Shown: in pieces, positions 10,515-56,251 of the stretch
Layout of the letters: every line of letters begins with the position of its first letter
How positions within the stretch are numbered: the first letter of the stretch is position 1
Source of the DNA: Verrucomicrobiia bacterium
Lineage (GTDB): Bacteria > Verrucomicrobiota > Verrucomicrobiia > Limisphaerales > Palsa-1400
Reading direction: 5' to 3'
Assembly: GCA_036501665.1 (NCBI GenBank)
Contig: DASXZW010000104.1
Coordinates: 12,902-76,901, forward strand
Length of the DNA stretch: 64,000 nt
Notes under the pieces: generated by a model
The model's input: the letters and a program-made list of their open reading frames with translations, nothing else
Database searches by the model: none
What the model was told of the DNA's origin: nothing
Translations under genes and position numbers: made by a program

Positions 10515-11548
10515 GGGGTCAGAACATAGTATTCATGCATATTGCTTGACATAGAGGCTGGGCATCGGGCAGGTTGCGCGGCAGAAATGGCCAGAAAGCT
10601 TCGAGTGCAGTATCCGGGGGCGATCTATCATGTGCTCAGTCGCGGGGATCGCCGGGAGGCCATTTTCAAGGACGACACCGACCGGGAGATGTTTTTGCAG
10701 ACGCTCGAGCAAGCCTGCGAAAAGGCCGGTTGGCAGGTTCATGCGTGGGTTTTGATGTCCAATCACTTTCATCTGGTCATTGAGACGCCCGGGGGCAACC
10801 TTGTGGCGGGAATGAAGTGGCTCCTGGGGACCTATACGTCGCGGTTCAATCGCCGGCACAAGGAGTTTGGCCACTTATTCAGCGGTCGATATAAGGCGCT
10901 CATCGTGGACGGCAGCGGCGATGGCTATCTCAAAACCGTGTGCGATTACGTGCATTTGAACGCGGCACGAGCCGGTTTGCTGGGGCCCCGGCAACGGCTG
11001 GCGAGTTATCGCTGGAGCAGCCTGGGCCAATATTTATCCCAGCCCGGCCGCCGGCCAAGGTGGTTGCGTGTGGACCGGTTGCTGGGAGAATGGAGAATTC
11101 CCAAAGACAGTCCGGCGGGACGCCGAATGCTGGGCGAGCAAATGGAACGGCGGCGATGGGAGGGAATGAGCCAGGAGTTCAAGCCCATCGAGCGGGGCTG
11201 GTGTTTGGGCGGAGAAGAGTTCAAGCGCGAGCTCCTGGAGCAAGTCAGCCGCCGGGCAGGGCCAGGGCATAAGGAGCCGGAAGTGCGTGAGGCGGCTGAA
11301 GCCAAGGCGCAGCGGCTGGCGCAAGAGGGATTGGCGCGGCTGGGCTGGGGCGAGGCGGAGTTGGAAGCGCGGCGCAAAGGCGACCCGGCAAAGGTGGATC
11401 TGGCGGCCGAGTTAAGGCGGCAGACGACCATGACCCTAAGATGGATCGCCCAGCGGCTGCGGATGGGGACGACCGGCCACTTGGCGCATCTGCTGTATTG
11501 GAAAGAACGAAATGAAAAACAATAAATACTATCTTCTGACCCCTTTAT
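10511..11548 (+). mobile_element. RayT/IS200-like HUH transposase unit bounded by inverted 26-28-bp repeats (REPtron-like)
   Basis: Left end: ATAAGGGGTCAGAACATAGTATTCAT (10511-10536). Right end: AATAAATACTATCTTCTGACCCCTTTAT (11521-11548), whose reverse complement is ATAAAGGGGTCAGAAGATAGTATTTATT. The two ends enclose a single Y1-transposase-like gene. Confidence 0.6.
10587..11525 (+). CDS. rayT: REP-associated tyrosine (Y1/HUH) transposase-like protein, IS200/RayT family, with C-terminal HTH-like tail
   Basis: The track ORF starts at the TTG at 10542; the ATG at 10587 gives MARKLRVQYPGAIYHVLSRGDRREAIF. HUH motif in WVLMSNHFHLVIETP. Tyr motif CDYVHLNAARAGL matches the YxHxNP-type of COG1943 proteins. 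The C-terminal RQTTMTLRWIAQRLRMGTTGHLAHLL resembles a DnaA-C-like HTH (recalled). Confidence 0.85.
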   Translation: MARKLRVQYPGAIYHVLSRGDRREAIFKDDTDREMFLQTLEQACEKAGWQVHAWVLMSNHFHLVIETPGGNLVAGMKWLLGTYTSRFNRRHKEFGHLFSGRYKALIVDGSGDGYLKTVCDYVHLNAARAGLLGPRQRLASYRWSSLGQYLSQPGRRPRWLRVDRLLGEWRIPKDSPAGRRMLGEQMERRRWEGMSQEFKPIERGWCLGGEEFKRELLEQVSRRAGPGHKEPEVREAAEAKAQRLAQEGLARLGWGEAELEARRKGDPAKVDLAAELRRQTTMTLRWIAQRLRMGTTGHLAHLLYWKERNEKQ

Positions 11549-23202: not shown

Positions 23203-23230
23203 GGTAGGGACGCCTCGCCGAGGCGTCCGC
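23203..23230 (+). repeat. REP-like 28-mer GGTAGGGACGCCTCGCCGAGGCGTCCGC (copy 1 of 3)
   Basis: Intergenic between pyc and fabI. A GTAG tetranucleotide is followed by a palindrome GGACGCCTCG-C-CGAGGCGTCC (10-bp arms). It is identical to the copies at 47637 and 51754. Confidence 0.75.
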
Positions 23231-46500: not shown

Positions 46501-47523
46501 CTGGCTGCCGTTGCCGATGATAATTCCCGCCACGTGTGTGCCGTGCCCATCGTCATCCTCCAATGCTCCCGCAGCGCCCTTGAGCCGGATTGATGCTCCC
46601 GCTCCAGTAAAATCCTTGTGAGTCGAGTCCACTCCGGTGTCGTTCAAACTCACCACGACGTTGGAGCCGGAAAGGTTCAGGTAATCTGGCGTGTTGGTCA
46701 GGGTGTCTGCCGTAACTCCCAATTGCACCCGCGAAATATCGTTGAGCATTCGGCGCCGGGCATAAGTCTCCACTTCCTGCGCCAAAGGCAACTGCGCAAT
46801 CGCCGCCACGCTGTCCGGCGGCGCGCTGACCACCAGGCTCGGTCCGAACGGCCCGCTGTCTTCGCCCACCAACTTTGCGCCCAGATCGGTCAATGCGGCC
46901 AAAGCGGCGTCCCGCTGTCCAGGGAAAGTGGTCACGCTCAAAAGATTGGTTTGCGATTCGCCTTCCACCGCACCGGGAAGCAATGACCCATCGAGCTTGT
47001 AATACGGTTCGTACGGCAAGACCGCCTGGAAAGTCGGGTCTGCCTCCAATGCTTTGGCCTGCTCGGCATCTGCCTTGACCAAACCGGCGTTGTTCGGAAT
47101 GTAACTGACAAACTCCCCGCCGTCCTTCTTCACCGCCTGGTAAAACTCCCGGTCCAACGGTCGGTCAAATTGGACAATGTAACTTCCCGCCGGCCCTTTC
47201 GTCCGCAATTGCGGCGGAATATCCAGATGCAACGGGCGCGTCGTGTCAATCAACGCATTGCGCAGGATGATCGCATGATCGCTGCGCAGAAGCTGCTTCG
47301 CAGTCTGCCGCGTATTGCTCAAATGGTAACTTTTTCGGCCCGCGCTCGCATTGGTCCCGACCGCGTTGATCAATGCCGGATGCGCTGGAGTGGAGGACGA
47401 AGGGGTTGTCGTTTCGCTGTGTTCCTGGTTGAGCCGAACTTTCTCCGCATAATGCCACATCCACCCTCCCGCCGCAAACAGCGCCAGGCTAATGACAAAC
47501 CATCCTCGCGGCTTAAGACTCAT
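40543..47523 (-). CDS. Giant (2326-aa) secreted S8 subtilase with two I9-like propeptide modules, an insert in the catalytic domain, two proprotein-convertase P-domains, a LamG (Laminin_G_3) domain, multiple beta-sandwich modules and a conserved C-terminal domain
   Basis: The ATG at 47523 gives MSLKPRGWFVISLALFAAGGW. Catalytic triad: SLNDTGVDSTH (Asp), DDDGHGTHVAGII (His), NNSWG (Asn) and ESGTSMSAAAVSGVLALM (Ser). P-domain-like segments: VTVSLGIQHGNPSDLYGTLTHNG and LSVGLRISDTNLDDLSIHLTSPQGTSVLLFENRGG. LamG-like: FNFDGSGQYVKIADS...VTIECWF...LYLNGAKV...GKIDEDTLYGRALSPVEIQ. Confidence 0.9.
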   Translation of the reverse strand: MSLKPRGWFVISLALFAAGGWMWHYAEKVRLNQEHSETTTPSSSTPAHPALINAVGTNASAGRKSYHLSNTRQTAKQLLRSDHAIILRNALIDTTRPLHLDIPPQLRTKGPAGSYIVQFDRPLDREFYQAVKKDGGEFVSYIPNNAGLVKADAEQAKALEADPTFQAVLPYEPYYKLDGSLLPGAVEGESQTNLLSVTTFPGQRDAALAALTDLGAKLVGEDSGPFGPSLVVSAPPDSVAAIAQLPLAQEVETYARRRMLNDISRVQLGVTADTLTNTPDYLNLSGSNVVVSLNDTGVDSTHKDFTGAGASIRLKGAAGALEDDDGHGTHVAGIIIGNGSQSSKVTNQVPGSVVGADFRGKATNATLYVQNLDLITGPFVSDNQLQINASSNLGPTNLISNNSWGYSSQSYDIHAASYDAATRDAQPMLKGDQPLLFVFASGDGGNGTDSGVDGQGGTINSPGSAKNVITVGATDTPRFLTNLVSFDGQSTNQVFLGETDNSNLVTYFSGVGNVGLGVEGITGRFKPDVVAPGVFIVSARSHNYVDPTNETLVTDDAVTNQSVAPGKTNYYPILYQNDGSALIIQIVTNSGSPAGYTNGFIVRADGKNPPVTIRGTDILGANVVILTNQIVPGPIYVGVAAAKGVVQPVTYDLHIFMLETNSSGDYFQVLSNMNSILKPAYRYESGTSMSAAAVSGVLALMQDFLEHRLNITPSPALLKALLINGSRSIGLEYDFDVKTLGANEQGWGMPFLPNSIPSSFTNGASARSLAFFDQSPANALATGQYQNYIITDPSGKASNAPIRISLVWTDPPGDPAAGVALVNQLSLTVTDHTGTNVFIGNDFLGGDIFSEANTGNAPDAVNNVQNIYIDPAFTPLTYPLTVTVGGARVNVNAVTARTNIIGQDYALVISGDDPTVPLSVVSNSVLSVPPTALVTQVSSGVPLLHERVGANQPTLWNFVTGGTNGSLTQWHFFVFTNLSLYTNANGTATNVAFATFLPPNLSAPRNTQSDIDMYVSTNPKLLQLDKLAVLQAFKSVGRGGTETFVTNSLAKTWYIGIKSEDQQAADFGFYAVAQQAPFSVQNPNGSVTATGTALPVFIPDAAAGAPAFVFAFLIDPLNPAMRIQDVTVSLGIQHGNPSDLYGTLTHNGVSTVLNHNSGAPGGFSVTYDDLQEQASSGDALSDGPGSLKNFIGQAGQGLWMLTEADNALGQTGEVETFSVTGTPQPQGLGFTITLQPNSWYKGYVPIPNDATNLTIFTTYASQGGGPIGIYLTNFDDVNFSDYTTNKINPPGGSLSLSTNPPKPFPPLSGGNWYYGIYNFNDTTPVTLNVLIQIQESLTPDLVQTFSNNTATPLLTAGHTQSQICITSGQQVVDLSVGLRISDTNLDDLSIHLTSPQGTSVLLFENRGGLAAQNLGLGSRADSNLIYTVFTEDTSLTQTPVKFASKFASPAPSAAVITADGFEGSAVNTYTVGQVVGGTWKVESNQVGVVKDATLAHTGNNFLALTTGRITNTYPTIVGKKYELIYWARGPGILGWWPGDRNTTDIAGGHNGTLVNGASYADGEVGSAFNFDGSGQYVKIADSTAFRAPSVTIECWFDGAIAVQEGNLFSKTLGSSYFDSYQMWLTEGNLNGIICNIAGIGPELSYPLTPVPGVWYYAAYTFDNDSKTQALYLNGAKVLGGAANLTIGYDSNPVFIGTEMDDFTPVQKFDGKIDEDTLYGRALSPVEIQTIYSAGSAGKYNSISLLPNFVVQLDGYSTNTEILANFSGPWQAFTNSFIATNNQVVVEFSGNTMSTLFDDIQFTQLPETNFNNYFLPEEPLTPFIGENPQGCWTLDVWDTRTDSPLPSDGSLLSWDLQTTISSTNVSLIVLSNDVLYTSGFVAGDSVTYFAVDVPPTASFATNILSKGSHPLNLLFDQDALPTGGLPGDVTMISGLKAGTFGTNTLAAQGPPPPLLPGRRYFLAVQNSGPKQATFNLEVQFDVSTNASVVRALTNQMSVATNISGGSVEYYSVKVPGNTTLATFQILGASTPLSLFARAGLPVPGPLSYDYTSSVTGAADQFVVVTTNSTPLALPTPTTNNPAPAGPTTWYLAVYNNTAGAANYTILATVATNGPSGAPGALDVMQLKPGFVKTGIAQPGFTTNIIYALTVLNNPAGVQFTLANKSAVGGLQLLAELGAIPTPGHSYDANSTTTTSPLSIVVGKGAALPSVNGTWYLAIANTASTPISYTITGTALTTGPVTTTPFIVDDQTATTQPLFIGSRISSPSSGFSLYWTATQGKKYNIEVSTDLVNWSVVTTVVAESNTAAFTDSIPVSQEPGRFFRITTQ
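40673..40792. repeat. 120-bp direct repeat, copy 2 (inside the 3' end of the giant subtilase gene)
   Basis: See copy 1. The spacing between copies is 2152 bp. Confidence 0.85.
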
Positions 47524-47636
47524 GTATCTTCCCTCCCTGCGTCTCGATTGAACACGCGAGGTAGCATACCAGAATGCCCGCCCCTTTGCCAGTGAAATTC
47601 CATCTTCGGCACAGGGCAAAGGACCCTAAACTCCGA

Positions 47637-47664
47637 GGTAGGGACGCCTCGCCGAGGCGTCCGC
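47637..47664 (+). repeat. REP-like 28-mer GGTAGGGACGCCTCGCCGAGGCGTCCGC (copy 2 of 3)
   Basis: Lies in the 243-nt gap between the GspK-like stop (47767) and the subtilase start (47523). The flank CCTAAACTCCGA resembles CCTAAATTTCGA at copy 3. Confidence 0.75.
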
Positions 47665-47766
47665 GGACAGATCAACAGGCCATTCCTTTCAGTCAATAAT
47701 AAAATTCGAGAATTGATGTTCAAAGAGTCGATTTCATTTAGGCGCATTTGCCCTGATGTCGGAAGG

Positions 47767-50700
47767 TTAGTTTGCCGGCTCAACATTGTAACTATCAACG
47801 ACCATTCTGGGCGGCCCGTTCGTATGCACCACATGGCAAACTGTGCGGCTCAAAAATTCACCGGTGATCTCGTAATTTGTGCAAAGGTTGTTGTTCGGCG
47901 ACGAAAGATAAAGGTTCTTTGGCCGGAGCGATTGTCCCCATGCGTAAATAACAAATTGCGGCTCGCCCACCTTCAGCAATCCCATGATCTGCTGCGGAAT
48001 GCGCTCCACTACCTGGTCGGAAACATCCGTCGCAGTGATATTGGTCAGGAAAGGCGACTTGACTGTGAGCGCCGGCGCGGCAAGGACCTGGCCGATCTTG
48101 TGGAACAACCCGTTGGCGTTCGTGGAACGAAACGCGTTTATCCCGTTCGTGGGATCATCCACGAATTGATACACAGCAGTTGGATCAATCGGGACGCCCC
48201 CGTTGACGTTGGTCAATGCGATGACCCCCCCCAAAGCCGCCGCCCACGCGCCATCGTTCGTTTGATTGACAGAAAGCAGTCCGCGCGCGGAATTCGCGCT
48301 CAGCGCAGCTGTAAACACGTCCGCCAAAGCCCAATCGTTGGTCGGGTAAGTGTCCGGTTGCTGATTTCCCGTAGAGTTCCACGGCGAACTCGTCCAGGTG
48401 GACCACGCGTTTCCAGGCAACGACTCCGCAACAGGGTTGTCCGACTTGAAATAAACCGTCTGCCACGGCGTTCCGCGATGAACGCGCCCAAGCCAGCCTG
48501 TGCTTGGGAATTTGTTGGCCGGAAATTGCCACATGTCCGCCGACGTTATACCGGGGTCCTTGAGCAGCATGTCAGTATCCGAGGTTCCAGTTCGCAACCA
48601 CGGATCGTAACGCTTGCTGATGCCGCCCACGCTGTTTGTCATGGGAAGCAACAAATACGCTCCAACTCCGGTGCCCGAATAAATCTCCACGCCGTCCGAC
48701 TGTGGCGCCGGCGGCGGCGGCGGCCATTTCAAATCGCCAACTGTGTAATGCACCAACGGATCATTGGCGACCCAACTGAGACTTTGCTCGAGCACGTTGC
48801 TGGGGCTGTTGCCCGGCGAGAATGTCCACCCTCCTTGATGCTGTTGGGAGCCATTGCCGAAAAGGCTGTTGGCGAAAACCTGATCGCTAATTTCTGCCTG
48901 GCCAATTTGGTTAATCATCCCTAAAGACATTGGCGAACCCGGAAACGAGGTCGCGTTGCCAATAGCCCACACGCTGCTTGCGAAGGAACTTCCTGCCCCT
49001 GGAAGCCCCCCGGAGCTTTGTTGCAATATTGAATTCGTAATGGAAACGGCGCTCCCAAAAGGCCCAAGGTTTACGTAATCGAGCAGAGCAGTACCCGGAC
49101 TTGGGGGGCCGTCAAACAGAGCATACACGACATGATTTGTAACGGTCAGGGTCCAATTATGCAGCGGCCAGGACGTCTGATTGGTGTCCTGCGGCAGGAA
49201 CGAATTGCTCGAAATCACATTATTCGTGAAAAATATCAGCCGCCGCTGCGATTCAGAAAAATAGCAAGGCGGAAGGCCAACGAGATTAATTGAGTTCAAC
49301 GTCACAAAGCCCTTGGTGCTGGCATTCGGGATGCCACTCCATGCGGGCCAATTGATTAACTTGCCGTTGTTCGGGCTTACTGTGGGATCATAAACGTAGG
49401 AAAAATTCGTAACGTAGCCGTAAGAAAAAAGGCTTTGATCATTTGTCAATTCTATGGTGACGTAGTTTGAAATGTAGTATGAGGTTCCTCCACCGGCTGC
49501 GGAGGACCCGGAGTATTGACTCGTATAGGGATTCCAGGCGCCGATTCCAAAACTGTTTGAAACGGCCATGACATAAAACTGGTTCGTGAACTGCGGAGCG
49601 CGATTGGTATCCGGTTGCCCCTCCCCGTTGGCGAATCTGGAGAAAAGAACTTTCCGCGTATATAAAATCCGATTGTTAAAGGCATATTGGTAAAATTGAG
49701 GAGTGCCCTTCTCCGCGGATACGACCCACGGTATGCCTTCAACATTGAAACCCAATGATCCGCGCTTTGCAAAGTCGTTGATGAACCCCTTAACAACGTT
49801 GTTGCTGTTAAGCTGGTAGTAGATCTGCCTCATCTGGTTCAGCGCGACACTTGCGTTGGTGACGTCGTTGGTCCATCCGACGATGTCGATGCCGTCGTTA
49901 ATCGTATTAGGATTGACACGGGCAAATAGCGGACGGAAAACAAATGGATGTCGCACTGGCGGCAACGGGTTTTTGGCTGGGTAAGTGTTTGTGATCGTTG
50001 AACTGTAAATATTCGCCGCCACTTGCAGAATCCGATGGACAGCCTGGTTGTATTGGATTCCGGGGTTATTAAATCGGAAAATAGGAATGTTGGTCACGCC
50101 GAAATAACCAGTCAGAAGCCCCGACTGTTGATAAACCCCGTTGACAGGGACATAATTGGTAAATGTGAACCCTTGCGAACGCAGCAGCAATTCCGCCGCG
50201 TTCGTAAAAAATCCCAGCGGCGTCCAATCCACAAAATTTGTCGGCATCGGGGTGTAAGGCCCCCTCTGGATTTGAGTGGTGTTGTCAAAATTGACGTTGA
50301 CCTTCGTCCGCAAGGTCGGCTGCCCCGCGTCGTTATAAACCCAGACGCCGTATTCCGGTTCAGACCCCGTGCCGATATTCTGCAACAACCGCTCGAAAGC
50401 ATACCGGTCCTCAGTATTGGTGTGAAACCCCGCCCTCAACATCCGGTTTGTAAACGCCACGGAAGTCTTGGCTGGATTAAACAAATCCTGCGGATCATAA
50501 AACATGTTCAAGGAATAACTGCCCGGCCATGGGAGACTCGGCGCGATAATTCGCGTTTGAATGTTGTTTGTAGGGTCAAACGGAGGCTCCGTATTTGCTG
50601 TCAATAAATAAGCATCGATTCCGCGTTGATCAAAGCTCGGGTAGAGACTGGGAAGGAGTCCGTCCAACGACCCGAATCCAATATACTTCGCGGTTTTATA

Positions 50701-51978
50701 ACCATTGTCAGGCCAGTTCCCATACCTAAAATGTAAAATCGCCTCTGCGTCATCAAAGGCAAAGCCCGTATTGGCCCTGCTGCTTGCGCCAAATGGAGGA
50801 TAATACCGGTATTGCAGCGACGGTTTTACGACGTAATAAGGATCGTCAAGAAGGAGTCCGGGCTGATAAAAATCTGGAGAGACAACATCCAGCAATGCGG
50901 CAAGGTTCAGTTCATACGAGGCTATGCCCTGGTCTCGCGCAAATCCATCAGTCTCCGTGAACGGCAACGCATTATTCAGGGCGTTGACATAGTCGCCCTT
51001 TGCGTAGTTGTGAATGTAGTTAAAATCCAGCGTCTTTCCAATCGGAAGCACCATGTAGGCATAGCGCCCGACGAAAATATTCGTCGCGGAATGGCGGTTC
51101 AAAGGATCGCGCAAAACCCCGATCCATTCCGGCTCGCCGTTCATATAATTTACCTGGGCAAATCCCGTTGGAAAATCAAAGTTTGCGGGAGCCTGCAAAC
51201 CGTTCTCCATGATGTAAGGCAAAACCCCGTTAGTCTCAAAACGTCCGTTGCGATTGACGTCCACCCAAAATCGAAAATCGCTGTTATTGGGAAAAGCAGG
51301 ATTGGTGACCACGAACACCGGCGGACGCGGGTCATAGTAAAGATTGGCAATGTTTTGCGCCCAGCCAGCAGGGTCCTTCTGCATGTTGAAAGGCGGCGCG
51401 TTAAACTGGGAGATCGTATAAGAATCGTAATTGACGTTCGTTGTGTCTTTGTTCCCCTTGTTGTAGCCGAACGGGCTGATATAATTCCGCGAAACCATGT
51501 AATCATAACTCAGCGCGTCGCCCCGCGCCTCCATCTGCGCAACGATCTCCGCCTGCGCGCGGTTCAACGCCGCATCGCTCATGTTACGCGCGCTGTCGGC
51601 ATCCAGCGTCGAAGTCACCGCCGCCCGGTCGCGCCGCGACATGGACAAAAATGCCACAGCCAAAAACGTAATGGCCGACAACATCAACAACGTGATGACA
51701 AGGGCCACCCCACGCTCCGAACGTTGAGATGAAGCGCCGCTCCTAAATTTCGAGGTAGGGACGCCTCGCCGAGGCGTCCGCAAACGGCCCAAAGTCAGAA
51801 TAGAGAGGGATGCTCTCGCGGTTGCTCCGCCCTCCGAAAAATTGCGGGGCACTCCAGGACGCTGTGATTCATGCGGTTGATTTACCGCGCATTCACAGCG
51901 TCCCGGAGCGCGCCAGATCCCTGGCGCTTTGGGATTGCCCCTCCCCCACCTCCTGGGCGGTTTTACTGAAAAATTCAT
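47767..51978 (-). CDS. Giant GspK-like minor pseudopilin (1314-1403 aa depending on start)
   Basis: Prepilin-like segment ERG|VALVITLLMLSAITFLAVAFL lacks Glu at +5, as in canonical GspK. It is the last gene in a G-H-I-J-K-ordered set. The ATG at 51978 makes an ATGA overlap with the upstream gene, but it puts a 90-aa Arg-rich leader containing a REP copy (51754-51781) before the TM. An alternative in-frame GTG lies at 51708. Confidence 0.7.
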   Translation of the reverse strand: MNFSVKPPRRWGRGNPKAPGIWRAPGRCECAVNQPHESQRPGVPRNFSEGGATARASLSILTLGRLRTPRRGVPTSKFRSGASSQRSERGVALVITLLMLSAITFLAVAFLSMSRRDRAAVTSTLDADSARNMSDAALNRAQAEIVAQMEARGDALSYDYMVSRNYISPFGYNKGNKDTTNVNYDSYTISQFNAPPFNMQKDPAGWAQNIANLYYDPRPPVFVVTNPAFPNNSDFRFWVDVNRNGRFETNGVLPYIMENGLQAPANFDFPTGFAQVNYMNGEPEWIGVLRDPLNRHSATNIFVGRYAYMVLPIGKTLDFNYIHNYAKGDYVNALNNALPFTETDGFARDQGIASYELNLAALLDVVSPDFYQPGLLLDDPYYVVKPSLQYRYYPPFGASSRANTGFAFDDAEAILHFRYGNWPDNGYKTAKYIGFGSLDGLLPSLYPSFDQRGIDAYLLTANTEPPFDPTNNIQTRIIAPSLPWPGSYSLNMFYDPQDLFNPAKTSVAFTNRMLRAGFHTNTEDRYAFERLLQNIGTGSEPEYGVWVYNDAGQPTLRTKVNVNFDNTTQIQRGPYTPMPTNFVDWTPLGFFTNAAELLLRSQGFTFTNYVPVNGVYQQSGLLTGYFGVTNIPIFRFNNPGIQYNQAVHRILQVAANIYSSTITNTYPAKNPLPPVRHPFVFRPLFARVNPNTINDGIDIVGWTNDVTNASVALNQMRQIYYQLNSNNVVKGFINDFAKRGSLGFNVEGIPWVVSAEKGTPQFYQYAFNNRILYTRKVLFSRFANGEGQPDTNRAPQFTNQFYVMAVSNSFGIGAWNPYTSQYSGSSAAGGGTSYYISNYVTIELTNDQSLFSYGYVTNFSYVYDPTVSPNNGKLINWPAWSGIPNASTKGFVTLNSINLVGLPPCYFSESQRRLIFFTNNVISSNSFLPQDTNQTSWPLHNWTLTVTNHVVYALFDGPPSPGTALLDYVNLGPFGSAVSITNSILQQSSGGLPGAGSSFASSVWAIGNATSFPGSPMSLGMINQIGQAEISDQVFANSLFGNGSQQHQGGWTFSPGNSPSNVLEQSLSWVANDPLVHYTVGDLKWPPPPPAPQSDGVEIYSGTGVGAYLLLPMTNSVGGISKRYDPWLRTGTSDTDMLLKDPGITSADMWQFPANKFPSTGWLGRVHRGTPWQTVYFKSDNPVAESLPGNAWSTWTSSPWNSTGNQQPDTYPTNDWALADVFTAALSANSARGLLSVNQTNDGAWAAALGGVIALTNVNGGVPIDPTAVYQFVDDPTNGINAFRSTNANGLFHKIGQVLAAPALTVKSPFLTNITATDVSDQVVERIPQQIMGLLKVGEPQFVIYAWGQSLRPKNLYLSSPNNNLCTNYEITGEFLSRTVCHVVHTNGPPRMVVDSYNVEPAN
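51754..51781 (+). repeat. REP-like 28-mer GGTAGGGACGCCTCGCCGAGGCGTCCGC (copy 3 of 3), inside the 5' end of the longest GspK-like ORF
   Basis: Identical 28-mer. On the minus strand it is read in frame as ...LRTPRRGVPTSKF.... Confidence 0.75.
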
Positions 51979-52895
51979 CGTGCCACCACCGGAATGCTGA
52001 CCCGGCGACGGAAAATTTCCATCGTGGTCGGCGCGTTAGTACCCATGTAACGAAGAAAAGCTGGCGAAGGACTCGGAATGCTTGCCAGGGCCCGCGCCCG
52101 AATCAAAGCGTCCGGCTCCAAAATGGCCAACTCGACATCCACCGCATTCGGCAGAGTGTTGATCTCCCCATCGACATTGTTCGGCAAGCGAAACCCATTG
52201 GTGGACAATGGATAGGAAAACGATCCTTGAGGCTCCCAATCTCCATAATATGCTTCAACACCCGGCTCTCTGCCATTTTGGTCATAAGCAAAAAGCTTCA
52301 AGCTGACGACTCCGTCCGCCACTCGATGCCAGTAAGCCATATTTGTAAAATTCTGAGTGGCCACAGAGGTCTCAAACGGAACGAAAAGATTATTGGTCAG
52401 TAGGTAAGGAGCGCTGAAATTGGTTTCGAAGCGATAGAGCGTTCCCACAGTGGCGCCGGAATTGGGAACCAGGTTCTGCACCGCGTAACCGACTCCCATC
52501 CACATGGTGTTGGTGTGTTCCAGAATGTATATGGCATCGACCTGGTTCGTGCGAAACGCCAGTGGAGGGTTAAATTGCGCGTTTGACTGCACACTGTTTC
52601 CCGACCAGGACCAGTAAAGGTTCGTGATGCCGGGGTTATTTCCGTCGCTCATGTGGCGCATGTCCGCCGCAATCATGTCCATGACCGTTCGTCCTGCGTC
52701 AGTGACCGTCGCGGCCTTGATGCCGGTCTTGAAAGCCTTTTGCGTCTGAATAAACATCGCCGTCAAGCCCAGCACGATAAAGCTCAGCATCGCCGTCGAA
52801 ACGAGCATTTCCAGAATTGTCAAACCGCGAATACGAAGCCGTTTTCCTGCGGCGTCGCTTGGCCTCTCAACGTATTGTGGCTTTACTCGCTTCAT
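51975..52895 (-). CDS. GspJ-like prepilin-type protein (306 aa)
   Basis: The ATG at 52895 gives MKRVKPQYVERPSDAAGKRLRIRG|LTILEMLVSTAMLSFIVLGL, with Gly at -1 and Glu at +5. ATGA overlaps at both ends. Confidence 0.65.
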   Translation of the reverse strand: MKRVKPQYVERPSDAAGKRLRIRGLTILEMLVSTAMLSFIVLGLTAMFIQTQKAFKTGIKAATVTDAGRTVMDMIAADMRHMSDGNNPGITNLYWSWSGNSVQSNAQFNPPLAFRTNQVDAIYILEHTNTMWMGVGYAVQNLVPNSGATVGTLYRFETNFSAPYLLTNNLFVPFETSVATQNFTNMAYWHRVADGVVSLKLFAYDQNGREPGVEAYYGDWEPQGSFSYPLSTNGFRLPNNVDGEINTLPNAVDVELAILEPDALIRARALASIPSPSPAFLRYMGTNAPTTMEIFRRRVSIPVVAR

Positions 52896-53860
52896 CTGAG
52901 GAATTGGTAGCCTTGAGTCAAGTAGGACTGCGGCTGGAAAAACCACAGTTGCTGCCCGTTGATATGATAAGGAGCACCCGAAGGCAACGTCGCGAACTGA
53001 ACGCCTGACGACACCGTCGTTCTGTAAGTCTGGTGATTCGGTCCCACGGTATAAGTGCCGTTCCCCGTATCAATAACCGGCCAGCTAAAACGCATCTTGA
53101 CGTCAAAACTGCTGTACGCCAGCGACCCGACCGCGTAGGGAAGGTTCGTTATCGTCTGTGGCGTCAACGTAAAAGAGGGAAATGGATTTGCTTCCAGATA
53201 TCGATAATAACGTGTCTGCACGTCAGGACTATTCGTCGCTTCGCCTCGGTTTAGATAAAATTGGTAATTGGTGCTGTCCGGCGCAAAATCGACGAGCGGC
53301 ACTATCTCAATATCCATCTGATACCGGAATGCAGTTAATCGGTTCGCTCCGTTTTGCTGCACTGCCGCCCCGCTCAACGAACGCACGATGGCCCGGGTTA
53401 TTGTAAAATTGCTCAAAGTGACGAAGGAAGGTTCAGGAGTGGAGAGCAACCCCAATATCTCCAGGCCAACGCCAAAATTAGTAAAAGTCGCGGTCGTAAC
53501 CGTCTTAATTGTGCCGCTCGCGACGTAATTGCTGATGATCGAAATGCTCTCCACGTAATTCGTCAGAAAATCCAGGCCCGAAAACGGAAGAGTATCATTT
53601 GCGCCGTTGTTTATAACGGTCAGGTTCGTGCTCCCATTCCGAATTGCATCGAGGAAAAACGGCGCATCCTGGCTGATCGTTGTGTCCTCGCGATTATCCT
53701 TTTGCACACTCATTCCCGCCGGAAGAATGCCAATGACCGCCACCAGGGCGAAACCGATTACACCGATGGCGATGGCTATCTCGACCATGGTGAATGCTCG
53801 TTCGCCCTGGCGGCGCTCTTCCTTGGCGTCTGCTAACAGGTTGTGCGGATAAAGGTTCAT
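52892..53860 (-). CDS. GspI-like prepilin-type protein (322 aa)
   Basis: The ATG at 53860 gives MNLYPHNLLADAKEERRQGERA|FTMVEIAIAIGVIGFALVAVIG. The longer track ORF (to 54265) overlaps the upstream gene, so I rejected it. Confidence 0.6.
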   Translation of the reverse strand: MNLYPHNLLADAKEERRQGERAFTMVEIAIAIGVIGFALVAVIGILPAGMSVQKDNREDTTISQDAPFFLDAIRNGSTNLTVINNGANDTLPFSGLDFLTNYVESISIISNYVASGTIKTVTTATFTNFGVGLEILGLLSTPEPSFVTLSNFTITRAIVRSLSGAAVQQNGANRLTAFRYQMDIEIVPLVDFAPDSTNYQFYLNRGEATNSPDVQTRYYRYLEANPFPSFTLTPQTITNLPYAVGSLAYSSFDVKMRFSWPVIDTGNGTYTVGPNHQTYRTTVSSGVQFATLPSGAPYHINGQQLWFFQPQSYLTQGYQFLR

Positions 53861-54807
53861 TGAAATTGGTTCTGCACAATCGTGGGCCGCGCCGTCAGCC
53901 AATCGATCTTGATCATACACGGATTGTTCGATTCGTTCCCAGGCGGCGCTTCTGTAATGAGCGGCGTCGGCGGCTGGTAAGGCCCGGTGGCAGTTTCCGG
54001 ATAAAAAATGCTTCCCCGAGTCAGCGTAATGTATTGGTTCGTGGATGTCAGCAGCGTCCCTTGCGGCGTAAAACCAATGTAAGGCAGGTTCATGTAAGTG
54101 CCCGCGTTGATGGACGGAAATGGAAACGAATTGCTGGCAAAGCCATACACATAATCGGCATTCGTTGTATTGTTTATTGTATTGGTTGTGCGAATCGTCG
54201 CGCCGCGAAATTGTGAGTTGAATTGCATGGGCCAGATGAAAACGCCGCTGGGCAGCGTCTGCCATTCCGTCAGATAATGTGGATAATGTTGGCCGGGTTG
54301 GTCGCCAACTGTTCGGTCGCTTATGATTGCATACGATACAAATTGATGTTCCAACAAGTTTGTTAGTTGCGGCGTGAGCTGCGCCTTTTCCTGGATGACA
54401 CTATTAAAATCACCCGAATAAGAAGGAACGAAAACCATATATACCGTGGAACGGTTCACCAGCGCCCGGTTGCGCGCCCGCGCCACGTCGTCCATCAATT
54501 GCCGTGTCGCCGCAGTAACGCCGTTGGCGCGGTTAAATCCGCCCACATGAGGCAGCGCCATCGCCGCGATAAACCCGATGATCGCCATGACCACCAGCAG
54601 TTCCAACAACGTGAACGCGCTTAACCTCCCCAACCGCCGATCTCCCCGCAAACCACGCCCGCGCAAGCCAAACCCGCGTCGCGCTTCTGGAAAACTTGTC
54701 CGGCGCGCCTTCCGCATCCCAACAATCATCGGCTGCGCCCCCGGCTGCTCAAGCCACTCGACAACGAGGCGCTTGATAACGGGTTTATTTTTTGCAGTGA
54801 CGCGCAT
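53857..54807 (-). CDS. GspH/FimT-like prepilin-type protein (up to 316 aa)
   Basis: ...GRLSA|FTLLELLVVMAIIGFIAAMALP, followed by TAATRQLMDDVARARNRALVNRSTVYMVF, which matches the GspH/FimT-like pattern. It has a long Arg/Gly-rich leader, and the start could also be at 54729 or 54717. Confidence 0.65.
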   Translation of the reverse strand: MRVTAKNKPVIKRLVVEWLEQPGAQPMIVGMRKARRTSFPEARRGFGLRGRGLRGDRRLGRLSAFTLLELLVVMAIIGFIAAMALPHVGGFNRANGVTAATRQLMDDVARARNRALVNRSTVYMVFVPSYSGDFNSVIQEKAQLTPQLTNLLEHQFVSYAIISDRTVGDQPGQHYPHYLTEWQTLPSGVFIWPMQFNSQFRGATIRTTNTINNTTNADYVYGFASNSFPFPSINAGTYMNLPYIGFTPQGTLLTSTNQYITLTRGSIFYPETATGPYQPPTPLITEAPPGNESNNPCMIKIDWLTARPTIVQNQFQ

Positions 54808-54815
54808 GAAAGTGG

Positions 54816-55499
54816 TTACCAGTTTCCGTTCGTTTCAATCACAGCCTGGCCGCTCTTTGTACCGACTTGAAATTCCGCCCACAAATCATAGCTGTTCTGG
54901 TTGTGGCGCCTCGGACTGGAAGCGTCATAATGCCAGAAATTTGGTTGGGTCTTGACCAATTGCGCGGGCACCAGCAGGCCCAGCACCGCTTGCGGCCCGG
55001 TCGCGCTGGTTCCGGGGTAATTCGTGTAATCCTGCTTTTTCGGTGCGGGTCTGAAGAAATTCTGCGGCTCAGAAGAGTCGGCATTGGCAATGCCATTGCG
55101 GTTCAGATACTTGGCAAATGGCCCTCCAGCGCTCAGCGAAATAAGATCGCCGGTAAAAATGATCGCCTGGGTGGAGTTCGTATTAGTAACCCCGGTCAAT
55201 TCATATATTAAGGCATTTGAAGCGGTAAGGCTCTCGTAAGTTTGCGGTGTAACGGCAGGAACCAATCCGGCAAGGTTTCCATTGTCCGGCGGATAAAAAT
55301 TCAACTTCGCCTGATAATTATCGATCATCGTCTGGAGCTTTTCCCGCTCCGCCTTGACCGCCGTTTCCATTTTGATCTTCGCCGCATATTGCCCGCCCGT
55401 AAGGATCATCGCCGCGATGATCCCCATGATCGCGATGACCGTAAGGATTTCGATCAGCGTAAACGCCTCTTGCCCCGATTTTGTATGATTAAGCTTCAT
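54816..55499 (-). CDS. GspG-like major pseudopilin (227 aa)
   Basis: MKLNHTKSGQEA|FTLIEILTVIAIMGIIAAMIL, then KAEREKLQTMIDNYQAKLNFYPPDN, which resembles the GspG-type 'Y..d.G.YP' segment. The start is separated from the brnA-like stop by 1 nt. Confidence 0.75.
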   Translation of the reverse strand: MKLNHTKSGQEAFTLIEILTVIAIMGIIAAMILTGGQYAAKIKMETAVKAEREKLQTMIDNYQAKLNFYPPDNGNLAGLVPAVTPQTYESLTASNALIYELTGVTNTNSTQAIIFTGDLISLSAGGPFAKYLNRNGIANADSSEPQNFFRPAPKKQDYTNYPGTSATGPQAVLGLLVPAQLVKTQPNFWHYDASSPRRHNQNSYDLWAEFQVGTKSGQAVIETNGNW

Positions 55500-55500
55500 G

Positions 55501-55800
55501 CTATCCGTTTTGAGCCCGCGCGCCCGACTTCTGTTCGCGCATTTCCTGTTCCATCCGTTCGCTCAGCCATTGCTTGATCATGCTTTGATAATTTAAAAAC
55601 CGTGTTCTGGCCAGCCGCTTAATTCGTGCCAACATTCGCGGATCCATCCGAAGACTGATCGCCACTGAGTCCGCCAGCTCATTTGACATCACCGACGACT
55701 CCATCAGCCGGACCTCAATTCGGTTCTCAGCCCAGAACGCCGCCTCGGATTCTTCGCGGTCGAACAGCGGAACTTCTTCCCAATTTGCGATGGCATTCAT
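55501..55800 (-). CDS. brnA: BrnA-like (CopG/RHH) antitoxin
   Basis: VAISLRMDPRMLARIKRLARTRFLNYQSMIKQWLSERME matches the BrnA_antitoxin pattern (isiRld...lk..A...g.gYQtlik.wl.erl). It lies downstream of the DUF497 gene, as in BrnTA. Confidence 0.7.
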   Translation of the reverse strand: MNAIANWEEVPLFDREESEAAFWAENRIEVRLMESSVMSNELADSVAISLRMDPRMLARIKRLARTRFLNYQSMIKQWLSERMEQEMREQKSGARAQNG

Positions 55801-55810
55801 GGTATTGAAA

Positions 55811-56098
55811 CTATTGCGCCAGCGTTTGATTTAATTTTCGTTGATAGAGATATTTCTCTTCAACCTCAAAAGGACGCGCGAAAATCACGCGCGCCTGCTT
55901 GCCGTTCGTGCGGTAAACGGTAAAAATCCCCGTCCCGTCGGACGCTGTCCCCAAGTTAAAAAACCGAGCCTGAACCGCAAACCGGGGCGAATCCGGCAAC
56001 AAACGCACAGCAAAAGGATCCTCAAAAGACTCTTCAATCGCCTGCAAAGTCAGCGTCCGAGCTAAATTGAACGGCGGATTGTTCCAGTCAAATTCCAT
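55811..56098 (-). CDS. brnT: BrnT-like (DUF497) toxin
   Basis: MEFDWNNPPFNLA...IEESFEDPFAVRLLPD...ARFFNLGTASDGTGIFTVYRTNGKQARVIFARPFEVEEKYLY follows the DUF497 layout (FEWD..., F.DP, ...R...iG..., iRiIsAR.a...E...Y). Confidence 0.7.
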   Translation of the reverse strand: MEFDWNNPPFNLARTLTLQAIEESFEDPFAVRLLPDSPRFAVQARFFNLGTASDGTGIFTVYRTNGKQARVIFARPFEVEEKYLYQRKLNQTLAQ

Positions 56099-56124
56099 AC
56101 TTTGTAAACCTTTTGGCCATGCAA

Positions 56125-56144
56125 TGTATTTACGTTGTATTTAC
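56125..56144. promoter_or_regulatory. Direct repeat TGTATTTAC-GT-TGTATTTAC upstream of brnT
   Basis: Read directly, 27-46 nt upstream of the brnT-like ATG (56098). It is a candidate BrnA operator or promoter element. Confidence 0.25.
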
Positions 56145-56251
56145 TACACGCAAAACGGTCGGTCAAGGGCTTTTTGCTGAAATTGGAGTTTTTCCAAAAA
56201 ATCAGGGAAACCCTGACTAAAAGTGCTCGTAGAAAAAAGAATTTCAACCGT

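What the first reader, a model, noticed from the sequence alone, without database searches (positions are those of the whole stretch)
47767..55499. Orphan, hypertrophied GspG-H-I-J-K-ordered pseudopilin operon
Five consecutive minus-strand genes each carry a prepilin-type N-terminus. Their order and diagnostic features match the canonical T2SS pseudopilin set G, H, I, J, K. The first has a GspG-like 'YQAKLNFYPPDN' segment. The second has a GspH/FimT-like ARxRA helix. The last lacks Glu+5 (ERG|VALVITLL), as only GspK does. All are far larger than textbook pseudopilins, which run about 120-330 aa: here 227, up to 316, 322, 306 and 1314-1403 aa. Three of the five have Ala rather than Gly at the -1 cleavage position. 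Three junctions are ATGA start/stop overlaps (53857-60, 52892-95, 51975-78), which implies translational coupling. No GspD/E/F/L/M/O gene occurs anywhere in the 64 kb. A roughly 1400-aa tip-type (K-like) pseudopilin would turn the pseudopilus tip into a very large surface module. That suggests a fibre/adhesin or cargo-presentation role rather than a classical piston.
Basis: partly seen in the sequence, partly recalled or inferred. Interest (0 to 1): 0.75.

Follow-up and report, generated by a model that had tools for sequence, protein, structure and literature searches.

The report
Pilus tip-gene cassette with giant protease
The five genes are the pilin and tip-complex part of a conserved, uncharacterised type IV pilus-like system of soil and freshwater Verrucomicrobiota, which always comes with a 1,300-residue cap protein, a giant subtilisin-type protease and a toxin-antitoxin-like regulator pair.

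Summary
The five minus-strand pilin-like genes are real. Their order matches G/H/I/J/K. Support differs by gene:
- P4 has a predicted fold whose 11 best PDB matches are all XcpW (GspJ).
- P2 gives repeated sub-threshold GspH hits.
- P1 resembles GspG only in the N-terminal 70 residues.
- P3 is "I" by position only.
- P5 is K-type only in its Glu5-less N-terminus. The rest of its fold matches nothing solved.

The sizes are conserved family traits, not mis-called ORFs. Two ATGA overlaps hold. The third (51975-78) is spurious, because a structured 266-nt spacer separates P4 from P5 (1313 aa).

"Orphan" is true only locally. In 37 of 61 related genomes the cassette directly follows pilB'-pilT-pilB-pilC, and the PilT is bona fide. 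This points to a retractile T4aP-like filament rather than a T2SS.

The real unit is larger than the finding. It comprises a conserved promoter/operator, a BrnT-like gene, a BrnA-like gene, the pilins, P5, and a 2,326-aa S8 subtilase. The subtilase follows P5 in at least 71 of 72 loci.

I rate it a new variant of a known kind. Interest is moderate, about 0.55.

The parts
56101..56166 (-). Conserved promoter/operator. It holds a -35 box TTGACC (56166-56161) and two tandem boxes GTAAATAC (56144-56137 and 56133-56126); the first contains a -10-like TAAATA. A third inverted half-box TTTAC lies at 56108-56104. The ATG follows at 56098.
   Evidence: In an alignment of 58 upstream regions from related loci, TTGAC and GTA..AC..GTA..AC are invariant, and 70 of 76 non-redundant related loci match the pattern TTGACN-14..20-GTAWHTRC. 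The box flips to GTATTTAC in L013, L028 and L042, as expected of a palindromic protein-binding site. No Rfam family matches it.
55811..56098 (-). BrnT-like (DUF497) 95-aa protein, first gene of the operon.
   Evidence: Pfam BrnT_toxin is sub-threshold (19.1 bits, cut-off 34.5). JGI names its homologs DUF497. It is present directly upstream of the pilins in 64 of 66 loci, with median identity 70%.
55501..55800 (-). BrnA/CopG-type ribbon-helix-helix 99-aa protein. Its stop codon lies one base before the start of P1.
   Evidence: Pfam CopG_antitoxin scores 38.3 bits against a cut-off of 28. It is present in 66 of 66 loci with enough flank, with median identity 71%.
54816..55499 (-). P1, a 227-aa pilin with QEA|FTLIE. 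It is G-like and a candidate major subunit.
   Evidence: N_methyl scores 25.3 bits, above its cut-off. TIGR01710 GspG matches residues 12-83 only (28.5 bits, cut-off 88.85). It is syntenic in 66 loci.
53857..54807 (-). P2, an H/FimU-like minor pilin. The ORF is 316 aa and the mature part about 252 aa (LSA|FTLLE).
   Evidence: Pfam GspH scores 18.3 bits against a cut-off of 21, covering profile positions 1-94 of 108. The same sub-threshold hit appears in 3 of 5 orthologs. NCBIfam hits are Verru_Chthon D at 39.7 bits and GspH at 33.6 bits, both N-terminal.
52892..53860 (-). P3, a 322-aa minor pilin (ERA|FTMVE), 'I/PilV' by position. It shares an ATGA overlap with P2.
   Evidence: Only N-terminal hits were found: Verru_Chthon B, PilV, and N_methyl at 15.5 bits. 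A family profile finds only pilin N-termini in the PDB. It is syntenic in 73 loci.
51975..52895 (-). P4, a 306-aa GspJ/XcpW-like minor pilin (IRG|LTILE). It shares an ATGA overlap with P3.
   Evidence: The AF2 model has pLDDT 82.9 and pTM 0.76. The 11 best Foldseek PDB hits are all XcpW, with probability 0.94-1.0 and TM-score 0.37-0.61 normalised to the target. Some homologs are named PulJ by JGI.
51709..51974 (-). Structured non-coding spacer between P4 and P5. It holds a 22-nt-arm hairpin (51846-51914) and the REP-like palindrome GGACGCCTCGCCGAGGCGTCC (51759-51779).
   Evidence: Repeats were found. The RNA fold is -126.8 kcal/mol with z = -4.86. JGI leaves this stretch uncalled.
47767..51708 (-). 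P5, a 1313-aa K-type (Glu5-less) cap-like protein with an otherwise unmatched fold. It has an invariant DxNxNGxxE loop and a conserved extreme C-terminus.
   Evidence: P0001 is 100% identical over 1313 aa. The family has 1175 clusters at 50% identity, and complete members are mostly about 1150-1400 aa. N-terminal-only hits go to TIGR02600, GspK and ComGG. An AF2 model of homolog P0116 has pLDDT 79, and no PDB match reaches E <= 1e-3.
47524..47766 (-). Spacer between P5 and the subtilase, holding a second copy of the REP-like palindrome (47642-47662).
   Evidence: The fold is not exceptional (z = -1.5).
40543..47523 (-). 2326-aa S8 subtilase. It has an N-terminal signal/anchor, P-domains, a LamG domain and a C-terminal beta-sandwich ending in RFFRITTQ.
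   Evidence: Pfam finds Peptidase_S8 (3.4e-34), P_proprotein and Laminin_G_3. A subtilase homolog lies directly downstream of P5 in at least 71 of 72 loci. The C-terminal motif RF[YF]R is seen in about 40 of 45 complete orthologs.

Best explanation
The finding is the subunit half of a conserved type IV filament system of Limisphaerales/Pedosphaera-type Verrucomicrobiota.

Proposed parts and roles:
- One operon runs from a conserved sigma70-like promoter. The operon encodes a BrnT-like and a BrnA-like (RHH) protein, one G-like pilin (P1), three minor pilins of H, I and J type (P2-P4), a K-type capping subunit (P5) and a 2,326-aa secreted or anchored S8 subtilase.
- By analogy with GspHIJK and FimU-PilVWX, P2-P5 would form the initiation/tip complex that primes polymerisation of the fibre. 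P5 would sit at the apex. P5 carries about 1,200 residues of novel globular structure, including a likely Ca-binding loop. The tip would therefore be a very large surface module.
- The motor and platform are two PilB/GspE-like ATPases, a PilT retraction ATPase and PilC. They are encoded directly upstream in most relatives and must lie elsewhere in this genome.
- The subtilase is an obligate partner. It is either mounted on or next to the tip, in the position of PilY1/MshQ, or exported with the help of the filament.
- The RHH protein probably binds the tandem GTAAATAC boxes that overlap the -10 region. Expression of the whole operon would then be set by TA-style autoregulation.

Shown: gene content, synteny, the family sizes, the J-like fold, the PilT identity and the conserved cis-element.

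Inferred: filament assembly, tip location of P5, the role of the subtilase and the regulatory role of the BrnT/BrnA-like pair.
For: - Prepilin motifs occur only in these genes in the window.
- P4 matches XcpW in predicted fold.
- P2 gives repeated GspH-like hits.
- P5's N-terminus is K-type across the whole family.
- The cassette is syntenic in 66-75 of 80 species-level genomes. More than 546 stretches of those genomes encode a P5 relative.
- A pilB'-pilT-pilB-pilC block is directly upstream in 37 of 61 loci. Its PilT is above the TIGR01420 cut-off.
- Split loci with the ATPase block alone also exist in metagenomes.
- A subtilase follows P5 in at least 71 of 72 loci.
- The BrnT/BrnA-like pair is present in 64-66 of 66 loci at about 70% identity, against 30-39% for the pilins.
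- The promoter/operator is invariant.
- Published framework: K-family minor pilins are completed by a C-terminal beta-strand. The strand comes in cis (GspK; CpaL of about 600 aa with a dispensable middle) or in trans from a large protein encoded just downstream of the IJK genes (PilY1; MshQ of about 1200 aa) (PMC13533445).
Against: - No protein of the cassette reaches a curated cut-off of any Gsp, Pil or Verru_Chthon model.
- P3 has no support beyond its N-terminus and its position.
- P5's globular part shows no similarity to GspK, PilX, PilY1 or ComZ.
- No secretin, PilMNOP or prepilin peptidase was seen within 10 kb of any locus, so the envelope conduit is unknown.
- P5 in this window may start at the GTG without a leader, and would then not be a prepilin-peptidase substrate.
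- There are no expression or localisation data.
Confidence: 0.7

Rival explanations
1. This is a T2SS-type pseudopilus dedicated to one cargo. The G-K set forms a short periplasmic piston that pushes the co-encoded giant subtilase through a secretin encoded elsewhere.
For: - The gene order is G-H-I-J-K.
- P4's closest solved structures are T2SS XcpW.
- The assembly ATPases score as well on GspE as on PilB, about 619 bits each.
- The subtilase has a Sec-type N-terminus and is always co-encoded.
- A published parallel exists in Omnitrophota, where giant genes, some with an N-terminal S8 domain, follow T2SS-like loci (10.1101/2023.11.21.568195).
Against: - A bona fide PilT-family retraction ATPase sits in the same block. 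By established knowledge, T2SSs lack PilT.
- No GspC, D, L or M was found near any locus.
- A 1,300-aa cap is hard to fit in a periplasmic piston.
- The bias of PDB hits to XcpW may only reflect that, to my knowledge, no PilW structure is solved.
Confidence: 0.2
2. This is a protease-tipped pilus. The subtilase is the PilY1/MshQ-position protein. Its conserved extreme C-terminal strand (..RF[YF]R[LVI]xxxP) completes the beta-sheet of the K-type P5 in trans, so the protease rides on the tip of a retractile fibre.
For: - The subtilase sits immediately downstream of the IJK genes, like pilY1 and mshQ (PMC13533445).
- Its C-terminal motif is conserved in about 40 of 45 orthologs despite lengths of 1.9-3.3 thousand residues.
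Against: - P5 has its own conserved extreme C-terminus (..PRxVVESYNxLPPD) and ends in three long strands. This fits a cis-completed, CpaL-like design.
- From my own recollection, not tested here, an RFYRV-type ending is common in large PVC secreted proteins, so it may be a generic domain end.
- The subtilase N-terminus looks like a membrane anchor.
Confidence: 0.2
3. This is not a filament. The pilin-like proteins are processed, membrane-anchored or periplasmic accessory proteins, as proposed for the many pilin-like proteins of PVC bacteria. They would chaperone or anchor the subtilase.
For: - All Gsp/Pil model scores are sub-threshold.
- There is no machinery in the window.
- The sizes are unusual.
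Against: - The H-I-J-K order is conserved, P4 has a J fold and P5 has a K-type N-terminus.
- The cassette is physically linked to pilB-pilT-pilC in most genomes.
Confidence: 0.07

Closest known systems
T4aP minor-pilin/PilY1 operon (fimU-pilV-pilW-pilX-pilY1-pilE of Pseudomonas; the minor pilin/PilY1 priming complex of Myxococcus xanthus, PMC7541494)
   Same: It has four minor pilins in H-I-J-K order followed by a very large tip-associated gene. It is linked to PilB/PilT/PilC in relatives. The K-type member lacks Glu5.
   Different: The K-type member is 1,313 aa rather than about 200 aa. No PilY1 domain is detected by Pfam. The large downstream protein is an active-looking S8 protease of 2,326 aa. 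A BrnT/BrnA-like pair heads the operon. No pilMNOPQ genes lie nearby.
T2SS pseudopilins GspG-H-I-J-K (XcpT-X)
   Same: The gene order is the same. P4 has the XcpW fold. P2 gives weak GspH-like hits and P1 resembles GspG N-terminally. The K-type N-terminus is shared.
   Different: All curated cut-offs are missed and the proteins are 1.5-4 times larger. P5's globular part is unrelated to GspK. PilT is present in the linked machinery block. No GspC/D/L/M genes are found.
Large K-like tip proteins CpaL/TadG (Tad pili, about 600 aa) and MshQ (MSHA, about 1200 aa) (PMC13533445)
   Same: These are oversized tip components. Either an N-terminal pilin-like part and an extreme C-terminal strand bracket a big middle module (CpaL), or a very large protein is encoded just after the IJK genes (MshQ).
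   Different: No sequence or fold similarity was detected. Here both kinds of large protein occur together. Whether P5's C-terminal strand returns to its N-terminal domain could not be tested.
'Verru_Chthon cassette' proteins D, B, C and A (TIGR02596, TIGR02598, TIGR02599, TIGR02600; uncharacterised)
   Same: The best or near-best NCBIfam hits of P2, P3, P4 and P5 go to D, B, C and A respectively. Model A is 1,296 positions long, like P5. Both come from the same phylum.
   Different: The hits cover only the N-terminal 30-85 residues and score 17-40 bits against cut-offs of 51-332. No family member tested bridges to TIGR02600. P5 therefore belongs to a separate, unnamed family.
Omnitrophota giant genes preceded by T2SS-like loci (10.1101/2023.11.21.568195)
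   Same: Both are in the PVC superphylum. A type IV filament/T2SS-like locus lies directly upstream of a very large protein that can carry an N-terminal S8 domain.
   Different: The Omnitrophota proteins are 10-85 thousand residues and their loci include gspD. No homology was tested here.
BrnT/BrnA type II toxin-antitoxin modules
   Same: The pair comprises a DUF497-like protein followed by a CopG/RHH protein. Tandem operator-like repeats overlap the promoter.
   Different: Its position is fixed at the head of a pilin operon across an order-level clade, with about 70% identity. The BrnT model is missed (19 bits against 34.5). It behaves like a domesticated regulator, not a mobile addiction module.

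Membership tests
T2SS pseudopilin set GspG-K | A class-III signal motif with Glu5 in G, H, I and J, and a K member that lacks Glu5 | tested here: met
   The motifs were read in the sequence. P5 has I or V at +5 in 102 of 102 family members.
T2SS pseudopilin set GspG-K | Each protein reaches the curated cut-off of its Gsp model (Pfam T2SSG/GspH/T2SSI/T2SSJ/T2SSK; TIGR01710, TIGR01708, TIGR01707, TIGR01711, NF037980) | tested here: not met
   P1 scores 28.5 on GspG (cut-off 88.85). P2 scores 18.3 on Pfam GspH (cut-off 21) and 33.6 on TIGR01708 (cut-off 80). P3 and P4 give no I or J hit. P5 scores 15 on GspK (cut-off 130), N-terminus only.
T2SS pseudopilin set GspG-K | GspJ fold for the fourth gene | tested here: met
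   The 11 best Foldseek PDB hits of the P4 model are all XcpW, with probability 0.94-1.0.
T2SS pseudopilin set GspG-K | GspK globular fold for the fifth gene | tested here: not met
   The model of P5 homolog P0116 (pLDDT 79) has no PDB match with E <= 1e-3 and no GspK or XcpX match. The family profile finds nothing among PDB sequences.
T2SS pseudopilin set GspG-K | Co-encoded GspC/D/E/F/L/M and no PilT | tested here: not met
   None is in the window. Related loci carry E/F-like genes together with a true PilT (TIGR01420, 447 bits against a cut-off of 319), and none carries a secretin.
T4aP core minor-pilin / PilY1 initiation module | Four minor pilins in FimU-PilV-PilW-PilX (H-I-J-K) order | tested here: inconclusive
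   The order, the J fold and the K-type N-terminus fit. H is sub-threshold, and I rests on position only.
T4aP core minor-pilin / PilY1 initiation module | A PilY1/PilC protein with a C-terminal beta-propeller, encoded downstream | tested here: not met
   The downstream gene is an S8 subtilase with P-domains and a LamG domain. Neither it nor P5 gives a PilY1 or PilC Pfam hit. No PilY1 fold match was found for P5.
T4aP core minor-pilin / PilY1 initiation module | Linked PilB, PilT and PilC | tested here: inconclusive
   They are absent from the window but directly upstream in 37 of 61 related loci. The rest of the source genome could not be searched.
Verru_Chthon cassette (TIGR02596/98/99/2600) | A score at or above the curated cut-off over the full model | tested here: not met
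   P2 scores 39.7 (cut-off 70), P3 20.8 (cut-off 51.4), P4 17.3 (cut-off 256.5) and P5 31.4 (cut-off 332.3). All hits are N-terminal only. 21 of 31 P5 relatives hit model A only at its N-terminus, and distant relatives do no better.
BrnT/BrnA type II toxin-antitoxin | A BrnA-type CopG/RHH antitoxin domain | tested here: met
   PF12441 scores 38.3 bits against a cut-off of 28.
BrnT/BrnA type II toxin-antitoxin | A BrnT (DUF497) toxin domain above its cut-off | tested here: not met
   PF04365 scores 19.1 bits in the window and 22.2 bits in L067, against a cut-off of 34.5. No PDB sequence match was found. JGI labels its homologs DUF497.
BrnT/BrnA type II toxin-antitoxin | RNase toxicity neutralised by the partner | not testable with these tools
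   This needs an expression or toxicity assay.
K-family minor pilin completed in cis (GspK/CpaL type, PMC13533445) | The extreme C-terminal strand packs into the beta-sheet of the N-terminal pilin-like domain | not testable with these tools
   Only the secondary structure of the model is returned. It shows an N-terminal helix (residues 10-70) and three terminal strands (1121-1182). No coordinates or multimer models are available.

The most novel reading that the evidence does not exclude
A retractile, PilT-powered pilus of soil and freshwater Verrucomicrobiota carries a composite 'working head' at its tip. The head consists of a 1,300-residue K-type cap of novel fold and a 2,300-3,300-residue subtilase locked on by C-terminal beta-strand addition. 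It would act as a protease-armed grappling fibre for attacking proteinaceous particles or other cells. The whole device would be switched by a domesticated BrnT/BrnA toxin-antitoxin pair acting on a conserved operator.
Probability: 0.15. Interest if true: 0.8.

Novelty: new variant of a known kind. Interest (0 to 1): 0.55.

Why it matters
Type IV filaments are usually described from Proteobacteria, where the K-type cap is about 200-330 residues and the tip adhesin is PilY1. This locus differs in four ways:
- An abundant environmental clade has fixed a different design. More than 500 matching stretches were found in species-representative genomes, and the cap family has 1,175 clusters at 50% identity.
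- The cap is four to six times larger and has an unmatched fold.
- A giant subtilase is an obligate partner.
- A toxin-antitoxin-derived pair sits at the operon's conserved promoter.

If the protease is tip-borne or filament-exported, pili would be linked directly to extracellular protein degradation in Verrucomicrobiota, which are known polymer degraders. The BrnT/BrnA-like pair would also be a clear case of a TA module co-opted as a fixed regulator of a surface organelle. None of the component families is covered by Pfam or NCBIfam models above their cut-offs, so the locus is currently annotated as 'hypothetical'.

Tried and rejected
1. Mis-called long ORFs or pseudogenes. Rejected: the lengths are conserved in hundreds of homologs and match JGI's gene calls.
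2. A 1403-aa P5 coupled to P4 by an ATGA overlap. Rejected: the stretch holds a REP-like palindrome and is a highly structured spacer.
3. The BrnT/BrnA pair as an incidental mobile TA insertion. Rejected: it has a fixed position in 64-66 of 66 loci and is better conserved than the pilins.
4. The conserved upstream element as a known RNA. There is no Rfam hit, and the box orientation flips in some loci, which fits a DNA site.
5. Membership of P5 in TIGR02600. Only the N-terminus matches, even for distant relatives.
6. Similarity of P5 to solved structures. Sequence profile and Foldseek both found nothing. The best Foldseek hits were small beta-sandwich pieces with E >= 0.017.
7. The subtilase as a pilin-like subunit. 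Its N-terminus is an ordinary basic-hydrophobic signal/anchor without a prepilin motif.
8. A first search for the subtilase in related loci used a query one base out of frame and gave a false negative. It was corrected.
9. A secretin or PilMNOP near the machinery block. Nothing is conserved upstream of pilB' or downstream of the subtilase.
It was repeated with database homologs.
11. Literature searches for 'Verru_Chthon cassette', Limisphaerales pilins and BrnT with type IV pili found nothing on this locus.

Full report
**Observation.** The region holds five consecutive minus-strand ORFs.
- P1: 54816-55499, 227 aa.
- P2: 53857-54807, 316 aa at most.
- P3: 52892-53860, 322 aa.
- P4: 51975-52895, 306 aa.
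- P5: ends at 47767.

JGI's gene calls on the source contig are 227, 316, 322, 306 and 1313 aa. That contig is Ga0376652_0000094, 198 kb. It is also deposited at NCBI as a 'MAG TPA: Verrucomicrobiae bacterium'.

P1-P4 carry QEA|FTLIE, LSA|FTLLE, ERA|FTMVE and IRG|LTILE. A six-frame scan of the whole 64 kb finds this motif in pilin-type ORFs only in these four genes. The one other pattern match lies inside a thioredoxin-domain ORF. Pfam N_methyl is above its cut-off for P1 and P2 and below it for P3 and P4. P5 has ERG|VALVITLL.

Ala at -1 is not an oddity of this window. It is the majority state in the family: 46/66, 58/72, 53/72 and 47/74 for P1-P4, with Gly in the rest.

**The third overlap is spurious.** Two of the three ATGA junctions hold. 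The one at 51975-78 does not.
- The supposed 90-residue leader of P5 contains a perfect palindrome, GGACGCCTCGCCGAGGCGTCC. The other two copies in the window are intergenic: 23208-28 and 47642-62.
- The 266 nt between P4's stop and GTG 51708 fold at -126.8 kcal/mol, with z = -4.9 against shuffles.
- GGAG lies 6 nt before that GTG.
- The database copy of the protein is 1313 aa.
- In-frame TTG starts 25 or 28 codons upstream remain possible. Most homologs have a leader (median 23 aa) ending in G, A or S.

**Does the set correspond to G-K?** No protein reaches a curated cut-off of any Gsp or Pil model. Support is graded.
- P1 aligns to GspG only over residues 12-83 (28.5 bits).
- P2 hits Pfam GspH at 18.3 bits (cut-off 21) over most of the model. 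Three of five divergent orthologs give the same sub-threshold hit.
- P3 has nothing beyond its N-terminus, even with a family profile against PDB sequences.
- P4 was modelled from 75 homologs (pLDDT 82.9, pTM 0.76). Its 11 best Foldseek matches in the PDB are all XcpW, the Pseudomonas GspJ, with probability 0.94-1.0.
- P5 matches GspK, ComGG and TIGR02600 only over its first 60 residues or so. In 102 of 102 relatives position +5 is I or V.
- A 1186-aa homolog of P5 was modelled with pLDDT 79 and pTM 0.81. The model has a 61-residue N-terminal helix, a large mixed middle and three long terminal strands. It has no PDB match at E <= 1e-3. The family profile finds no solved relative.

In summary, J is supported by structure, H weakly, G and K only by their N-termini, and I by position alone.

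**The sizes are conserved.** P5 has more than 1,000 homologs at 90% clustering, nearly all 1,170-1,400 aa. Its C-terminal half finds 1,175 clusters at 50% identity, 618 of them at E <= 1e-30. Invariant residues include D150, N152, N154 and E158 in the sequence DVNRNGRFE. I read this as a 9-residue Ca-binding-type loop. That reading is an inference from the pattern only.

**Context in relatives.** A pattern scan of one genome per species found at least 546 stretches encoding P5 relatives, essentially all in Verrucomicrobiota MAGs. In the 80 loci fetched:
- The order P1-P2-P3-P4-P5 is kept wherever the flank allows: 66, 72, 73, 75 and 80 loci respectively.
- A homolog of the downstream S8 subtilase begins just after P5 in at least 71 of 72 loci.
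- The more distant loci have a second, canonical GFTLIELLVVIAIIGILA pilin between P1 and P2. The window's clade lacks it.

**'Orphan' is a local state.** In 37 of 61 loci with enough flank the cassette is directly preceded, on the same strand, by four genes:
- a PilB/GspE-like ATPase;
- a PilT-like ATPase;
- a second PilB/GspE-like ATPase;
- PilC/GspF.

The PilT-like protein passes the TIGR01420 cut-off (447 bits against 319). The two assembly ATPases score equally on the GspE and PilB models and carry MshEN domains. This block is present even in L008, a fairly close relative. It is absent in the window and its nearest relatives.

Metagenome loci centred on the first ATPase show both states. 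In some the block is followed by the cassette and in others the block stands alone. Nothing is conserved upstream of the block or downstream of the subtilase, and no secretin or PilMNOP was seen. Within the window there is no machinery gene. The presence of PilT argues for a T4aP-like retractile filament rather than a T2SS.

**The unit is larger than the finding.** The 95-aa and 99-aa ORFs directly upstream of P1 look like a BrnT/BrnA pair.
- CopG_antitoxin scores 38.3 bits, above its cut-off. BrnT_toxin scores 19 bits, below it.
- They are present in 64-66 of 66 loci.
- Their median identity to the window is 70-71%, against 30-39% for the pilins, P5 and the subtilase.
- The BrnT-like family has more than 4,500 clusters at 90% identity, almost all of the listed ones 95 aa long.

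The 100 nt upstream of this pair are conserved at the DNA level in fused and split loci alike. The conserved features are:
- an invariant TTGAC;
- two tandem GTAAATAC boxes about 15-18 nt further on, the first containing a -10-like TAAATA;
- a third inverted half-box.

The box appears as its reverse complement in a few loci. That fits a palindromic protein site rather than an RNA motif, and Rfam has no match. I infer three things. The pilin-cap-subtilase operon has its own promoter. The RHH protein is its repressor. The TA-like pair has been domesticated as a regulator.

**The subtilase.** It is 2,326 aa, starting at ATG 47523.
- The catalytic motifs DTGVD, HGTHVAG and GTSMSAA can be read in the sequence.
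- Pfam finds P-domains and a LamG domain.
- The N-terminus is an ordinary basic-hydrophobic signal/anchor, not a prepilin motif.
- Orthologs vary from 1.9 to 3.3 thousand residues. About 40 of 45 end in RF[YF]R[LVI]xxxP.

**Mechanism.** Ellison et al. (PMC13533445) show that the beta-sheet of the K-family minor pilin is completed by a C-terminal strand. The strand is given in cis in GspK and CpaL. CpaL has about 600 residues, and its middle part is partly dispensable for piliation. The strand is given in trans by the large protein encoded just after the IJK genes: PilY1, or MshQ of about 1,200 residues.

The present locus has candidates for both. P5 has a conserved extreme C-terminus, ..PRxVVESYNxLPPD, after three long strands. 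The subtilase occupies the PilY1/MshQ position.

My best account is that P2-P5 form the initiation/tip complex of a PilB/PilT-driven filament built of P1 or a pilin encoded elsewhere. P5 would be a giant cap. The subtilase would be an obligate partner, either tip-associated or exported. Which of the two holds cannot be decided without multimer models or experiments.

**Comparison and novelty.**
- The kind is known: a type IV filament minor-pilin operon with a large tip partner.
- The closest annotated families are the uncharacterised 'Verru_Chthon cassette' models. P2, P3, P4 and P5 hit D, B, C and A respectively, but only at the N-terminus and far below the cut-offs. This is therefore a separate, unnamed family set.
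- A parallel exists in Omnitrophota, where T2SS-like loci precede giant, sometimes S8-bearing genes.
- No paper on this locus was found.

I rate it a new variant of a known kind, with moderate interest.

Noticed in passing
window 55501-56098 (-): A BrnT-like/BrnA-like pair sits at the head of the pilin operon. It is fixed there in 64-66 of 66 related loci. At about 70% identity it is far better conserved than the pilins (30-39%). It looks like a domesticated toxin-antitoxin module.
   Followed up: partly
window 56101-56166 (-); alignment A6: A DNA-level conserved promoter/operator lies upstream of the BrnT-like gene in all related loci. It has an invariant TTGAC and two tandem GTAAATAC boxes 11 bp apart, plus an inverted half-box. 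The box orientation flips in L013, L028 and L042.
   Followed up: partly
window 23208-23228, 47642-47662, 51759-51779: A REP-like element of about 51 nt with a perfect 21-nt palindrome, GGACGCCTCGCCGAGGCGTCC, occurs three times. Each copy lies between genes. Translated remnants of similar elements (..TPRRGV..) appear in the over-extended 'leaders' of some P5 homologs.
   Followed up: partly
window 51709-51974 (-): The P4-P5 spacer is unusually structured (z = -4.9). Besides the REP palindrome it has a long hairpin at 51846-51914, which gave a spurious mir-138 Rfam hit. It may attenuate or process the transcript ahead of P5 and the subtilase.
   Followed up: partly
L012-L080, between the P1 and P2 orthologs (e.g. 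L067:6423-7427): Most related loci carry a second, canonical pilin (GFTLIELLVVIAIIGILA..; Pfam T2SSG at 23.5 bits). The window and its closest relatives lack it.
   Followed up: partly
L067:22-4937; L083:9518-15469: The machinery block has two PilB/GspE-like ATPases, each with an N-terminal MshEN domain (by established knowledge a c-di-GMP-binding type), plus one PilT. A block with two assembly ATPases is unusual.
   Followed up: no
window 47767-51708 (-), P5 residues 150-158: The loop D-V-N-R-N-G-R-F-E is invariant in the family (D150, N152, N154, E158). It resembles 9-residue integrin/PilY1-type Ca-binding loops.
   Followed up: no
window 40543-40600 (-) and subtilase orthologs: The extreme C-terminus of the subtilase, ..RF[YF]R[LVI]xxxP, is conserved in about 40 of 45 orthologs, although the domain content in front of it varies by more than 1,000 residues.
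   Followed up: partly
L001, L004, L026, L038, L043, L078 (record titles): Several contigs carrying this Verrucomicrobiota-type locus are labelled Baltobacteraceae, Saccharimonadales, Bifidobacterium, Bifidobacteriaceae, Akkermansia muciniphila or Methylomirabilota. These are probably mis-binned or mislabelled MAG contigs.
   Followed up: no
window 10542-11525 (+): An ORF carries an IS200-like Y1 transposase domain (Pfam Y1_Tnp, 1.5e-13).
   Followed up: no
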